64,000 bases of DNA from contig CAXHDG010000002.1 of the NCBI GenBank assembly GCA_964015495.1, forward strand, positions 1,449-65,448, given 5' to 3'. Of the stretch, positions 5,252-20,607 are shown one piece after another (the first letter of the stretch is position 1; each line of letters starts with the position of its first letter). Both the position numbers and the translations under genes were made by a program. This DNA is from an uncultured Magnetococcales bacterium (GTDB lineage Bacteria; Pseudomonadota; Alphaproteobacteria; UBA2136; JAPKEQ01). Below the pieces are notes generated by a model. The model ran no database searches, was not told the DNA's origin, and was given only the letters and a program-made list of their open reading frames with translations.

Positions 5252-7000
5252 ATGCTGAACCTTTCAAAACAACAAGAGCAAGCAATACAGCACCAAGGGC
5301 ATAATCTTGTTCTGGGTTCTGCTGGTACTGGAAAAACGACTGTGCTCTGCAAAAGAGTCCAGCATCTTCTTGATCAGGGCATTGAAGCCCGCGACATTGC
5401 TGTCGTTCTTTTTACTTATAAAGCCTGTTCACATATTAAGCTTGCTCTTCAAGAGTGTTTTGGTGAGCGCGCAGAGCATGTTACCGTTGTCACACTCAGA
5501 GACTTGTGCCTTGAAACATTGAAAAATCTTGAGCTTGACGAGGCTATTGCTGATGGGCAAGACATGAGGCGTATTTTAAGATACGCAATGAAAGATATTG
5601 AATTTTCAGGCACAGTTAAAGAAGCTGAGCATATTATTCGCAAATTTTATGGTATGTCGCATGATCCTCAGGAAAATGAACGTCATGCTGATCTGTATTT
5701 TGCCTATAAAGGTTTCATGAAGCAGTATGACCTGATTGACCGTTTTGCTTTAATTCAGGAATCGTTAAGCCTTATTGAAAGTGGTGAAGCGATAAAGGTG
5801 CCTTATAAGCATATTTTAGTGCCTCATGCTCATGAGGCAACACCGGCGCAATTGCTCTGGCTATTTGCTCATAAAAATTCTGCAGAGCTTACGTTTTTTG
5901 CTGATGATAATCAGCAGCTATTTGCTCATGATGGCGCTGTTGGTGCAAATGTTATCAAAACAGTGACAGAAGAGCATGAATTTAAACTGTTCCGCCTTGA
6001 AACAAACTTTGTGCAAGAGCAAAACATTGGTCAGATGGCAGAAAACTTTGTAGCAGGTGCAAAGGGGTATGTTCACAAGAAGGTTCAGTTCTCTCGCACA
6101 GGAAAAGGGCAGTTTCAGGTGCGTCCGTATAAAACATATGCGGATGAGATTGCTGGACTTCTTAGTCTTGTGCATGAAACATTATCTGATGATAAGAAAA
6201 ATATAGCAATTTTGACGCGCCACGATAGAGAGGCGCAGCGCATAGAGCGTGTGTTAAAAGCTAAAGGTTATGGGGATATGCTTGCATCTAGAGCAACGCC
6301 TATTTGGGAATTTCCTGGTGCTATTATTGTGCTGGATATACTTGATCTATTGTTTGATCAGGCGAGTCCGCAACAACTTATGAATATTCTTACATCATTT
6401 GGCATTAGCCATTCTTTAGCCCAAATTTTATTTAGAGAAGGCATGGTTTCAGAAAAGTGGTTAGCTGAGGGGGCGCCTGTTCCTAAAGGATTAGACCTTC
6501 CTAAAAATGTTTTTTCTGAACTTCAAATGGTAAGGTCTAAGCTTACAAAGCCTTATGAAATTCTTAAAAACCAACAAGCACCTTCTAGAGATGTTTTTAA
6601 ATCTATTGTTTTTGATTTATTGCAAAACCTTGGGGAGGAACATGAGCGTGACGCGCTGATTGCAGCAGAATGTGTTTTAACATTTGAGGGAAGAGTGCGA
6701 GAGCTGCCTTCTGTTGCTAAGAAAATTTTTAGTGACTTCAGTAAATCAAAAAGGATTGTTGTTTCCCCTATTCATGTGAGCCAAGGGCTTTCCTTTGACG
6801 TTGTTATGATTCCTTTTGTATGCGCCGAACGTTTTCCATTTACAGGTTATACATCTTTAGGAAAAAATTTAAACCATGATCGCCGGCTTATGTATCAGGC
6901 CTTAACGCGCTCTAGGCAGCAAATTATTCTTTCTTGCCATGGGGAGGCTTCTCCTTTTGTTGATGAACTTAAGGCACTTTTTGCACAAATAAAGAGTTAA
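5252..7000 (+). CDS. Superfamily-1 DNA helicase (RecD/TraA/UvrD-like)
   Basis: Begins LSKQQEQAIQ... then Walker A GSAGTGKTTV. C-terminal PIHVSQGLSFDVVMIP resembles RecD motif V (TVHKSQGSEF), and YQALTRSRQQIIL resembles motif VI. No relaxase-like N-terminal domain. Confidence 0.55.
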   Translation: MLNLSKQQEQAIQHQGHNLVLGSAGTGKTTVLCKRVQHLLDQGIEARDIAVVLFTYKACSHIKLALQECFGERAEHVTVVTLRDLCLETLKNLELDEAIADGQDMRRILRYAMKDIEFSGTVKEAEHIIRKFYGMSHDPQENERHADLYFAYKGFMKQYDLIDRFALIQESLSLIESGEAIKVPYKHILVPHAHEATPAQLLWLFAHKNSAELTFFADDNQQLFAHDGAVGANVIKTVTEEHEFKLFRLETNFVQEQNIGQMAENFVAGAKGYVHKKVQFSRTGKGQFQVRPYKTYADEIAGLLSLVHETLSDDKKNIAILTRHDREAQRIERVLKAKGYGDMLASRATPIWEFPGAIIVLDILDLLFDQASPQQLMNILTSFGISHSLAQILFREGMVSEKWLAEGAPVPKGLDLPKNVFSELQMVRSKLTKPYEILKNQQAPSRDVFKSIVFDLLQNLGEEHERDALIAAECVLTFEGRVRELPSVAKKIFSDFSKSKRIVVSPIHVSQGLSFDVVMIPFVCAERFPFTGYTSLGKNLNHDRRLMYQALTRSRQQIILSCHGEASPFVDELKALFAQIKS

Positions 7001-7100
7001 GTTGCAAATTTCTGACACATCTACGCCTTTTAACGCTGCGCTGTTCAGTTTTTGTTTGGAAGGTTTCCATAATTCAGTACTCTTGTAAGGTGCAGAAAAA

Positions 7101-19753: not shown

Positions 19754-19827
19754 GGCGTGTATAGGTCTTTTTTGCTATAGTGGCCACATCTCTTAAATCT
19801 ATCTCCCTTTTTTGAACTGGATATGTC

Positions 19828-20607
19828 ATGGCTATTGCCTTAGATGACGACCTATTGGAGAAGGCTTATTACACCAAAGGGAGTGATGAACCTAACCAAA
19901 GCGGGCACGGAGAGTGTCTGCATCATGTGTTTGAGCATTATATTAAGGCTTTACGCATCAACCCGAAGCTTAACCGGGATAGTGCGTTTAAATGCGCTCA
20001 CAAGGCGCTCCACAAATTTTTTAAGCGAGAAAACAGGAAAGGCTTTTTGAGAACCCAAAAATATGCGACTCGCCCTAATATGTGGACAGTCGCTGAAATA
20101 AAAGCTTGGGCTCTAAAATGCCTAAGGCGTTTTATTAAATGGCTAAAGGATGAGCAGATCGTATTTATTGAGGAAGAGATGTCTCTTGCCTTTGAACTCG
20201 ATCTGCCTGATGGCTCTGTGCGGGGGTTTAATCTTGGGCGATCTGATCTTGTTGCTTATAGCGCTAAAACGGGCCGGTATATCGTGATTGATCATAAAAC
20301 ATCACAAAAACAACTTGATGAAGAGCTAAAGTCTAGCGTGAAACGGCAACTGCTTAAGCATGCGCTGGGTTTACACCTGTATTTCAAAAAGAAAAAACCG
20401 CCTGTTCACCTTCTAGAGGTGGAAACTGTGGCTTTGTTTTTTGTTGTAGGGCGTGGAAGGCTGGAATTTAAGCCACGTTTTAATCAGGTCCATAACCCTT
20501 ATGAGCTTTTTCGCCGTAAAGGGGAAAAGTGGAAGCGACTCCAAACGCGTTATAAGCCCCTTGTTAAAAATTTCTCTCGGGCGCGCTATGTACCAGCAAA
20601 AAGCTAA
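19828..20607 (+). CDS. PD-(D/E)XK nuclease (RecB-family-like)
   Basis: 259 aa. Motifs FIEEEM (E), GRSDLVAY (D) and YIVIDHKTS (D-x-K), plus a downstream Q...Y-like segment (RQLLKHALGLHLY). No Cys cluster, so not Cas4-like. Confidence 0.55.
   Translation: MAIALDDDLLEKAYYTKGSDEPNQSGHGECLHHVFEHYIKALRINPKLNRDSAFKCAHKALHKFFKRENRKGFLRTQKYATRPNMWTVAEIKAWALKCLRRFIKWLKDEQIVFIEEEMSLAFELDLPDGSVRGFNLGRSDLVAYSAKTGRYIVIDHKTSQKQLDEELKSSVKRQLLKHALGLHLYFKKKKPPVHLLEVETVALFFVVGRGRLEFKPRFNQVHNPYELFRRKGEKWKRLQTRYKPLVKNFSRARYVPAKS

What the first reader, a model, noticed from the sequence alone, without database searches (positions are those of the whole stretch)
5252..20607. Possible self-contained nucleic-acid processing and transcription module inside the T4SS locus
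Taken together, the non-tra genes are a helicase, a sigma-like/ParB fusion, a NusA-like protein, a PhoH-like ATPase and a PD-(D/E)XK nuclease. This is more than a stray insertion. It looks like a coherent information-processing gene set that may substitute for the missing relaxase and coupling protein and provide element-specific transcription control. This functional reading is inference only.
Basis: inference. Interest (0 to 1): 0.7.

Follow-up and report, generated by a model that had tools for sequence, protein, structure and literature searches.

The report
Private transcription factors inside a chromosomal T4SS locus
A pilus/secretion-machine gene cluster kept in the chromosome of a group of uncultured small-genome Alphaproteobacteria always carries three odd genes – a sigma factor fused to a ParB DNA clamp, a NusA look-alike and a crippled UvrD-type helicase – which most likely form a private transcription-control set for that cluster, not a replacement for the DNA-transfer enzymes of conjugation.

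Summary
They do not form one module.

The first three sit in conserved positions inside an F-like (TraC/VirB4-type) T4SS cluster. That cluster recurs in more than 30 uncultured alphaproteobacterial MAGs, between housekeeping genes that differ from genome to genome. It therefore looks chromosomal and vertically inherited, not mobile.

PhoH and the nuclease are separate, terminator-flanked units in a strain-variable spot. The PhoH allele is only 34% identical between two strains that are 93-94% identical in the flanking DNA. PhoH is absent from most relatives, and the nuclease from nearly all.

No relaxase or coupling protein lies in the window, in the 8.3 kb upstream, or in the flanks read in relatives. 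The helicase family lacks the catalytic Glu of motif II, and the window copy lacks the Asp too.

Best reading (about 0.45): a locus-dedicated set of proteins from RNA-polymerase-binding families, comparable in role to RfaH/ActX and KorB. A substitute for relaxase and coupling protein is not supported. The sigma–ParB architecture and a locus-specific NusA paralogue appear undescribed.

The parts
17..1540 (+). g507, predicted lipoprotein of unknown function; conserved member of the cluster upstream of the pilin gene
   Evidence: ORF. No family hit. A homologue sits at the same position in L039, and ORFs of similar size (514 and 568 aa) sit there in L045 and L040.
1716..2075 (+). Pilin, TrbC/VirB2-like
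   Evidence: PF04956 8e-05, below the curated cut-off. Followed by a perfect hairpin terminator at 2089-2116.
2145..2414 (+). TraL/VirB3-like
   Evidence: PF07178 8.3e-05, just below the curated cut-off. Weak match to the equivalent ORF of plasmid pOS401.
2470..3734 (+). Two paralogous TraE-like bitopic proteins (2470-3108 and 3105-3734)
   Evidence: 26% identical to each other, E 1e-15. The single equivalent ORF in L040 carries a weak PF05309 TraE flag.
3731..4459 (+). TraK/VirB9-position protein (g242)
   Evidence: Signal peptide visible in the sequence. tblastn 7e-09 to the ORF in the TraK position of pOS401. Assignment rests on position only.
4506..5243 (+). Lytic transglycosylase (VirB1-like)
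   Evidence: PF01464 SLT 1.2e-06.
5252..7000 (+). UvrD-like SF1 protein with degenerate catalytic motifs
   Evidence: PF00580 and PF13361. Walker A is intact. Motif II reads PHAHEAT (family: DN-x-QDAT) and motif IV reads NFVQ. Conserved next to the sigma-ParB gene in relatives. Only 27-30% identical to homologues.
7101..9224 (+). Sigma70 (ECF-like sigma2 + sigma4) – ParB N-domain/HTH – coiled-coil fusion
   Evidence: The sigma-like part (residues ~48-270) is the most conserved part of the protein across 25 homologues.
9305..11245 (+). g646, secreted Cys-containing protein; occupies the variable slot between the sigma-ParB gene and TrbI
   Evidence: Signal peptide. No family hit. Relatives have 1-3 large, poorly conserved genes here. 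Terminator at 11301-11327.
11424..12899 (+). TraB/TrbI/VirB10-like
   Evidence: PF03743 4.5e-09.
12924..13337 (+). TraV/VirB7-position lipoprotein (g137)
   Evidence: Lipobox SGC in the sequence. Conserved (48-67% identity) between TrbI and TraC in all relatives.
13309..15918 (+). TraC/VirB4 ATPase
   Evidence: PF11130 and PF19044. 60-70% identical across the clade; the next relative is 26%. 24-29% identical to plasmid F-type TraC.
15922..17829 (+). g635, Pro-rich single-pass membrane protein with a conserved ~90-aa C-terminal domain
   Evidence: Alignment A4. No PDB or Pfam relative. Always lies between TraC and the NusA-like gene.
17848..18741 (+). NusA-fold protein (NTD-S1-KH-KH); last gene of the T4SS operon
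   Evidence: An imperfect hairpin at about 18762-18799 follows it (read).
18861..19712 (+). PhoH-like ATPase; accessory, strain-variable
   Evidence: PF02562 8.5e-38. Phage-type phrog_170, 4.8e-44. Allele replaced in L031. Terminator at 19720-19747.
19828..20607 (+). PD-(D/E)XK nuclease; accessory
   Evidence: PF12705 2.1e-08. Phage exonuclease phrog_69. Found only in L019 and L031 among relatives. Hairpin at 20636-20661.

Best explanation
Window 1-18.8 kb, plus at least 8 kb upstream, is a chromosomal, vertically inherited F-like type IV secretion/pilus gene cluster. It is characteristic of a clade of uncultured Alphaproteobacteria, some of them assembled on contigs of about 1.3 Mb.

Three non-structural genes are fixed parts of this cluster:
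1. A sigma70-family (ECF-like sigma2 + sigma4) domain fused to a ParB N-domain/HTH and a coiled coil.
2. A NusA-fold protein.
3. A UvrD-like protein whose ATP-hydrolysis motifs are degenerate.

All three belong to families whose canonical members bind RNA polymerase. I infer they form a locus-dedicated transcription module:
- The sigma part directs RNA polymerase to the cluster's promoters.
- The ParB part targets or tethers it on DNA, possibly as a CTP-gated clamp as in KorB.
- The NusA paralogue modifies elongation or termination through the long operons.
- The UvrD-like protein acts as a non-motor RNA-polymerase accessory.

PhoH-like and PD-(D/E)XK are not part of this. They are phage-type accessory genes in a variable spot just past the operon's end.

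Shown: domain identities, synteny, chromosomal context, motif degeneration, variability of PhoH and the nuclease.
Inferred: RNA-polymerase binding, promoter targeting, clamp behaviour.
For: Domain identities: sigma-ParB, NusA fold, UvrD-like.

Synteny: the order pseudopilins - two large genes - pilin - TraL - TraE - TraK - (SLT) - UvrD - sigmaParB - 1-3 large genes - TrbI - TraV - TraC - Pro-rich protein - NusA-like is seen in the window, L004, L039, L040 and L045 and in parts in about 25 further loci.

Co-inheritance: identity of the NusA-like protein tracks that of TraC as well as TrbI does (Spearman 0.65, n=25, against 0.57).

Chromosomal setting: flanks are housekeeping genes and differ between genomes (AI-2E/MurJ/MutS here; glycosyltransferases, or YidC/RnpA/TsaD, elsewhere).

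Conservation: the sigma-like region is the best conserved part of the fusion, with long invariant stretches matching sigma2 and sigma4.

Operon structure: terminator-like hairpins bound the units pilin | TraL..g646 | TrbI..NusA-like | PhoH | nuclease.

Precedent: locus-specific elongation-factor paralogues encoded in or acting on conjugative pilus operons are known (RfaH, ActX; PMC7819879; PrfaH of IncX, abstract of PMC11880322). ParB-family proteins of conjugative plasmids act on transcription (HerB/YfjB, PMC13370423; KorB structures are among the best fold matches).
Against: - No experiment and no transcript data exist for this locus.
- No distinctive conserved promoter or parS-like site was found.
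- The window copy scores below the curated cut-off for the sigma model (28.5 against 42.9 bits) and has DGEWR instead of the family's DG-x-RR ParB motif.
- In one genome the sigma-ParB gene lies far from the T4SS genes, between an MCP gene and an AsmA gene (L038). It could therefore serve a wider regulon.
- NusA-like S1-KH-KH modules with the same sequence motifs also occur at the C-terminus of STAND-type NTPases. The fold need not imply RNA-polymerase binding.
- Whether the genomes also hold canonical nusA and rpoD was not tested.
Confidence: 0.45

Rival explanations
1. DNA-processing module for DNA transfer, release or uptake through the T4SS. ParB-like and sigma-like HTH domains bind a transfer origin, the UvrD-like protein unwinds, and PhoH and the nuclease process DNA. 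Together they replace relaxase and coupling protein.
For: No relaxase or T4CP in the window, in 8.3 kb upstream, or in the flanks of relatives. A ParB fold and an SF1 helicase fold are present. A distant plasmid T4SS (pOS401) also has a UvrD-like gene about 7.5 kb downstream of TraC. From memory, not tested here: the Neisseria gonococcal genetic island T4SS needs ParA/ParB for DNA secretion, and the ComB T4SS of Helicobacter works without T4CP or relaxase.
Against: - No conserved nickase-type domain.
- The helicase family lacks the motif II Glu, and the window copy also lacks the Asp and the motif IV Arg.
- PhoH and the nuclease are accessory and strain-variable.
- No inverted repeats of note at 5250, 7000-7100 or 9225-9300.
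- Sigma2/sigma4 and NusA folds have no known role in DNA transfer.
- The locus is chromosomal with no sign of mobility.
Confidence: 0.17
2. The three genes are lineage-specific general transcription or nucleoid factors that are merely linked to the T4SS cluster by shared ancestry of gene order, with targets across the genome.
For: The sigma-ParB gene is unlinked from the T4SS genes in one 1.35-Mb contig yet retained. All genes are vertically inherited, so synteny could be partly historical.
Against: Flanking genes are reshuffled between genomes, while these three keep their exact slots between T4SS genes in about 20 genomes whose TraC proteins are only 60-69% identical to the window's. The UvrD-like start codon follows the SLT stop by 8 bases, and the NusA-like gene follows g635 by 18 bases, which suggests co-transcription.
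Confidence: 0.15
3. The RNA-polymerase-family proteins are cargo. They are delivered by the T4SS into a target (prey or host) cell to capture its transcription.
For: Plasmid ParB-like HerB reprograms recipient transcription after conjugative entry (PMC13370423). Predicted loss of motor activity in the UvrD-like protein would fit a binding-only effector. Pseudopilins, a T4SS and contigs of about 1.3 Mb hint at a cell-associated lifestyle.
Against: No coupling protein to recruit substrates. No secretion signal was identified. HerB itself is expressed in the recipient, not injected. The lifestyle of the clade is unknown.
Confidence: 0.06

Closest known systems
KorB of IncP plasmid RK2 (ParB-family transcriptional regulator of transfer and maintenance operons)
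   Different: KorB is a repressor with no sigma domain and works with KorA. Here the ParB part is fused behind a sigma2-sigma4 module and followed by a long coiled coil. The locus is chromosomal, not a plasmid.
HerB/YfjB, ParB-like leading-region protein of conjugative plasmids (PMC13370423)
   Same: A ParB-like CTP-binding domain plus HTH, joined to an unusual dimerisation module. It changes transcription.
   Different: No sigma domain. It acts in the recipient on the host chromosome. No sequence relationship was tested.
RfaH / ActX / PrfaH: NusG paralogues dedicated to conjugative pilus operons (PMC7819879; PMC11880322)
   Same: A paralogue of a universal elongation factor, encoded in or acting on a T4SS/pilus operon. 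This is the same logic proposed for the NusA-like gene.
   Different: A different family (NusG against NusA fold). No ops-like element has been identified here. No function has been shown.
Phage T4 late transcription: sigma gp55 tethered through gp33 to the gp45 sliding clamp (from memory, not tested)
   Same: A sigma factor physically coupled to a DNA-encircling clamp. This is what a sigma-ParB fusion would be if the ParB part closes on DNA.
   Different: T4 uses separate proteins and a replication clamp. Clamp behaviour of this ParB domain is untested.
F-type (MPF-F) conjugative T4SS
   Same: The pilin-TraL-TraE-TraK-...-TraB-TraV-TraC gene order, and a TraC with the TraC_F_IV N-domain.
   Different: Only 24-29% TraC identity. 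No TraD or TraI, and no recognisable TraG/N/U/W/F/H. Type IV pseudopilin genes lie upstream. The cluster is chromosomal and clade-wide.
T4SSs that work without a coupling protein: Helicobacter ComB, Bordetella Ptl, Brucella VirB (from memory)
   Same: A VirB4-based machine with no VirD4-type ATPase or relaxase next to it.
   Different: Those systems carry no sigma-, NusA- or UvrD-like genes. The function here is unknown.

Membership tests
Sigma-70 family, ECF-like (group 4) | Sigma2 domain (core binding, -10 recognition) | tested here: met
Sigma-70 family, ECF-like (group 4) | Sigma4 HTH domain following sigma2 | tested here: met
   The TIGR02937 match spans profile positions 11-158 of 165 (residues 48-235). 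The invariant stretch FQEIAYHFGVTDSRASQ..NELM is in the alignment.
Sigma-70 family, ECF-like (group 4) | Score above the curated family cut-off | tested here: not met
   The window copy scores 28.5 bits against a cut-off of 42.9.
Sigma-70 family, ECF-like (group 4) | Binds RNA-polymerase core and directs promoter-specific initiation | not testable with these tools
   Needs biochemistry.
ParB/Srx superfamily (CTP-dependent DNA clamps) | ParB N-domain plus HTH fold | tested here: met
ParB/Srx superfamily (CTP-dependent DNA clamps) | GERR arginine patch and ENLQR motif for CTP binding and hydrolysis | tested here: inconclusive
   The family has DG-x-RR; the window copy has DGEWR. In the ENLQR equivalent, N and R are kept and the Glu is not.
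ParB/Srx superfamily (CTP-dependent DNA clamps) | Cognate parS-type palindrome and a partner ParA | tested here: not met
   No ParA-type gene was seen in the cluster. No enriched palindrome: TGTTGCAACA gives 6 matches against 4.3 expected.
NusA | NTD - S1 - KH1 - KH2 domain order | tested here: met
   The top 17 Foldseek PDB hits are NusA, E 1.8e-13 to 5e-08, with alignments of 240-360 columns. The model has pLDDT 83.8.
NusA | Sequence membership (NusA_N, S1, KH_5 models) | tested here: not met
   No Pfam, NCBIfam or PDB-sequence hit even at E up to 1-10. 12-14% identity in the structural alignments.
NusA | rimP-nusA-infB gene context | tested here: not met
   It lies after TraC and g635 in every genome seen.
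NusA | Binds RNA polymerase and nascent RNA | not testable with these tools
   Needs pull-down or structure of a complex.
UvrD/Rep/PcrA SF1A helicases | UvrD N- and C-terminal domains, Walker A | tested here: met
   PF00580 and PF13361. GSAGTGKTT is present.
UvrD/Rep/PcrA SF1A helicases | Motif II DE-x-QD with the catalytic Glu | tested here: not met
   The family has DN(L/V/F)QDAT; the window has PHAHEAT.
Conjugative element (plasmid or ICE) with an MPF-F T4SS | VirB4/TraC with the pilin-TraL-TraE-TraK-TraB-TraV core | tested here: met
   TraE, TraK and TraV rest on weak hits or on position.
Conjugative element (plasmid or ICE) with an MPF-F T4SS | Relaxase and type IV coupling protein | tested here: not met
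   None in the 64-kb window, in 8.3 kb upstream, or in the 10-kb flanks of six related contexts. The rest of the genomes could not be read.
Conjugative element (plasmid or ICE) with an MPF-F T4SS | Signs of mobility: integrase, tRNA target, patchy distribution | tested here: not met
   No tRNA in the window. No integrase hit. Housekeeping flanks that differ between genomes. The cluster is found clade-wide with 60-70% identical TraC.
PhoH-like ATPases | PhoH domain above the cut-off | tested here: met
   130.3 bits against a cut-off of 27. A second, canonical YbeZ-type PhoH lies at 39882-40916.

The most novel reading that the evidence does not exclude
The sigma-ParB fusion, the NusA look-alike and the apparently hydrolysis-deficient UvrD-like protein are not regulators of the producer cell. 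They are cargo or partners of the T4SS, delivered into a target cell to seize its RNA polymerase, in a coupling-protein-independent machine of a cell-associated alphaproteobacterial lineage.

A milder novel reading is already part of my best explanation: a sigma factor that rides a CTP-gated ParB sliding clamp, probability about 0.3.
Probability: 0.06. Interest if true: 0.9.

Novelty: new variant of a known kind. Interest (0 to 1): 0.6.

Why it matters
Locus-private transcription factors for secretion and pilus operons are known from the NusG family and from ParB-type repressors. I found no description of a sigma factor covalently joined to a ParB module, or of a dedicated NusA paralogue (0 papers; public records call these proteins hypothetical).

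If the ParB part clamps DNA, this would be a natural case of a sigma factor tethered to a sliding clamp. That principle is so far known, from memory, only from phage T4 late genes.

The work also defines a clade-wide chromosomal T4SS with no coupling protein or relaxase next to it, in a widespread uncultured group of Alphaproteobacteria whose biology is unknown. It yields a new sequence family of NusA-fold modules that recur in STAND NTPases.

Tried and rejected
- oriT-like inverted repeats at 5250, 7000-7100 and 9225-9300: none. The only strong hairpins are terminator-like, after the pilin gene, g646, PhoH and the nuclease.
- parS-like palindrome TGTTGCAACA (perfect copy at 20705-20714): not enriched, 6 against 4.3 expected.
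- Conserved promoter upstream of TrbI in 29 loci: a GGTTTGCC...N17...TAAAxT pattern recurs. It looks like an ordinary sigma70-type promoter, and in L004 at least it lies inside the end of the upstream gene, so it may reflect coding conservation. Not pursued.
- Rfam on the whole window: nothing.
- PDB sequence searches for the NusA-like protein and for g635: nothing.
- PADLOC: only generic GajB/UvrD hits for the helicase and none for the other proteins. A defence-system reading was rejected for the core genes.
- Taxonomic placement below class: literature searches on Micavibrio and Micavibrionales gave nothing usable. The order remains undetermined.
- Identity correlations for sigma-ParB and UvrD-like had too few full-length pairs to mean anything.
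Full report
**What is in the window**

Bases 1-20.6 kb carry a same-strand run of genes, followed by housekeeping genes:
- AI-2E transporter, MurJ and MutS.
- SNase, AdoHcy hydrolase, a giant NAD-GDH, TsaB-like protein, NAD synthase and a canonical PhoH/YbeZ.
- CHASE2 cyclase, Slam, CitMHS, a TsaE-APH fusion, AddB/AddA, arginase and an aminotransferase.

There is no tRNA and no Rfam match.

The T4SS genes are a TrbC/VirB2-like pilin, TraL, two TraE-like paralogues (26% identical), a TraK-position protein, an SLT transglycosylase, TrbI/TraB, a TraV-position lipoprotein and TraC/VirB4. The order is that of F-type systems. TraC, however, is only 24-29% identical to plasmid TraC proteins.

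**The five non-tra genes**

- UvrD-like: PF00580 and PF13361.
- PhoH and PD-(D/E)XK: clear Pfam hits. Both look phage-type in PHROGs.
- Sigma/ParB fusion: weak in the window copy but firm at family level.
  - 24 of 25 homologues hit the sigma70-ECF model (best 1.5e-12) and 20 of 25 hit parB_part.
  - A profile of the family finds Spo0J in the PDB at 6e-07.
  - Foldseek finds Noc, ParB and KorB.
  - The sigma-like half has the longest invariant stretches. The C-terminus is a long coiled coil.
- The 297-aa protein: no sequence-level relative in Pfam, NCBIfam or the PDB. Its model (pLDDT 83.8) nevertheless matches NusA structures in the 17 best Foldseek hits, through NTD, S1 and both KH domains (E down to 1.8e-13).

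**Do they travel together?**

TraC has about 85 cluster representatives at 60-70% identity, all from uncultured alphaproteobacterial MAGs. The next relative is at 26%. I read 32 genome loci and several metagenome contigs.

The order pseudopilin genes - two large genes - pilin - TraL - TraE - TraK - (SLT) - UvrD-like - sigma-ParB - one to three large poorly conserved genes - TrbI - TraV-like - TraC - Pro-rich protein - NusA-like is kept in essentially all loci with enough context. The flanks differ and are housekeeping genes: glycosyltransferases and DnaJ in L004; YidC/RnpA/TsaD and flagellin/RuvAB in L005.

In one 1.35-Mb contig the cluster is split, and the sigma-ParB gene sits alone between an MCP gene and an AsmA gene.

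NusA-like identity tracks TraC identity about as well as TrbI does. Public records call these proteins hypothetical.

The cluster is therefore a vertically inherited chromosomal trait of a clade, not a mobile element. Three of the five genes are fixed parts of it.

**PhoH and the nuclease are different**

- A hairpin follows the NusA-like gene, and strong terminators follow PhoH and the nuclease.
- PhoH occurs downstream of the NusA-like gene in only six loci, and the nuclease in two. PhoH was confirmed by Pfam in L007 and L013.
- A second MAG of the same species (L031) is 93-94% identical on both sides. It has unrelated DNA exactly over the PhoH gene, with an allele only 34% identical in protein. 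It also has an extra 259-aa ORF after the nuclease.

These two genes are accessory cargo of a variable spot.

**Relaxase and coupling protein**

None lies in the window, in the 8.3 kb upstream (which holds type IV pseudopilin-like proteins and a 1070-aa coiled-coil protein), or in the flanks read in relatives. Whole genomes could not be scanned, so absence from the genome is not shown.

The helicase is a poor candidate for a transfer motor.
- The family has DN-x-QD in place of DE-x-QD.
- The window copy reads PHAHEAT and has also lost the motif IV arginine.
- It is the fastest-evolving conserved gene of the cluster, at 27-30% identity.

**Mechanism**

Sigma factors, NusA and UvrD-type proteins all have canonical members that bind RNA polymerase (established knowledge). 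The simplest account is a private transcription set for a cluster of about 25-30 kb:
- The sigma domain handles initiation.
- The ParB module handles DNA targeting or tethering.
- The NusA paralogue handles elongation and termination control.
- The UvrD-like protein acts as a binding-only accessory.

Precedents exist for each half of this logic:
- RfaH activates the F transfer operon, and ActX is encoded inside plasmid pilus operons (PMC7819879).
- PrfaH is required for IncX conjugation (abstract).
- ParB-like HerB reprograms transcription (PMC13370423).
- KorB is a ParB-family regulator of RK2 and a close structural match.

The fusion of a sigma domain to a ParB module, and a NusA-family rather than NusG-family paralogue, are the new features. 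I put this reading at about 0.45. The steps from fold to RNA-polymerase binding, and from ParB fold to clamp behaviour, are inference.

**Caveats**

- I found no specific promoter or parS-like site.
- The window copy of the ParB motif is DGEWR rather than DG-x-RR.
- The S1-KH-KH part of the NusA-like protein shares sharp motifs (GASNSWA, LGLRRxT, DPRKLRTF) with C-terminal domains of STAND/AAA_22-type NTPases of about 1300-2470 aa, and with proteins of about 540 aa in two-gene contigs. The module is thus used outside any T4SS context, and its ligand is open.
- The taxonomic order of the clade could not be settled.

**Verdict**

Novelty: a new variant of a known kind, namely locus-specific transcription factors in T4SS operons. 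Interest: 0.6.

Noticed in passing
window 18848-19708 against L031 4444-5306: Two strains that are 93-94% identical in flanking DNA carry unrelated DNA over the PhoH gene, and the two PhoH proteins are only 34% identical. This is allelic replacement at a fixed slot.
   Followed up: yes
L031 6664-7500 (ORF 6712-7491), equivalent to window ~21057: The sister strain has an extra 259-aa ORF inserted after the PD-(D/E)XK gene. It is unrelated to that nuclease and its function is unknown.
   Followed up: partly
window 17848-18741, residues ~95-295; proteins P0312-P0374: The S1-KH-KH part of the NusA-like protein, with motifs GASNSWA, LGLRRxT and DPRKLRTF, recurs at the C-terminus of ~540-aa proteins and of STAND/AAA_22/NACHT-like NTPases of 1300-2470 aa (49 representatives below 1e-10). 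This may be a sensor or effector module of defence-like proteins.
   Followed up: partly
L001 2187-4583 (upstream of the window); L039 1-990; L040 1774-2220; L045 1-102: Type IV pseudopilin-like genes (N_methyl motif), and in two of the relatives fragments of prepilin peptidase (A24_N), lie upstream of the T4SS pilin block in distant relatives too. The conserved cluster is therefore larger than the T4SS genes and mixes type IV pilin and T4SS parts.
   Followed up: partly
window 9305-11245; L004 4054-8019; L039 12172-16174; L045 12202-20456; L040 12254-20378: The slot between the sigma-ParB gene and TrbI holds one to four large genes, mostly secreted or of unknown type (560-1265 aa). They are barely conserved and in L040 partly inverted. 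This is a variable region inside an otherwise rigid cluster.
   Followed up: partly
L007 15364-16173; L005 15773-16603; L011 15196-15900; L019 15342-16253: Many relatives have a further gene of ~230-300 aa of unknown function directly after the NusA-like gene (overlapping its end in most). The window lacks it.
   Followed up: partly
window 39882-40916 (-): A canonical YbeZ-type PhoH (PF02562, 4.6e-88) is present. The PhoH at 18861-19712 is therefore an extra, phage-type paralogue.
   Followed up: yes
window 53582-59835 (+): An AddB/AddA-type helicase-nuclease pair (PDDEXK_1; UvrD + PDDEXK_1) supplies the housekeeping UvrD-like and PD-(D/E)XK functions of the genome.
   Followed up: partly
window 30684-35525 (-) and 51290-52837 (+): A 1613-aa NAD-glutamate dehydrogenase and a TsaE-aminoglycoside-phosphotransferase-like fusion.
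   Followed up: no
L041 (plasmid pOS401, AP026971.1) 23991-25940: The closest plasmid T4SS (TraC 27-29% identical) also has a UvrD-like 'YjcD' helicase gene ~7.5 kb downstream of TraC, among unannotated genes. It is 21% identical to the window's UvrD-like protein.
   Followed up: partly
window 20684-20938 (-): A small 84-aa ORF on the opposite strand with a good ribosome-binding site lies in the 560-bp gap between the nuclease gene and the AI-2E transporter gene.
   Followed up: no
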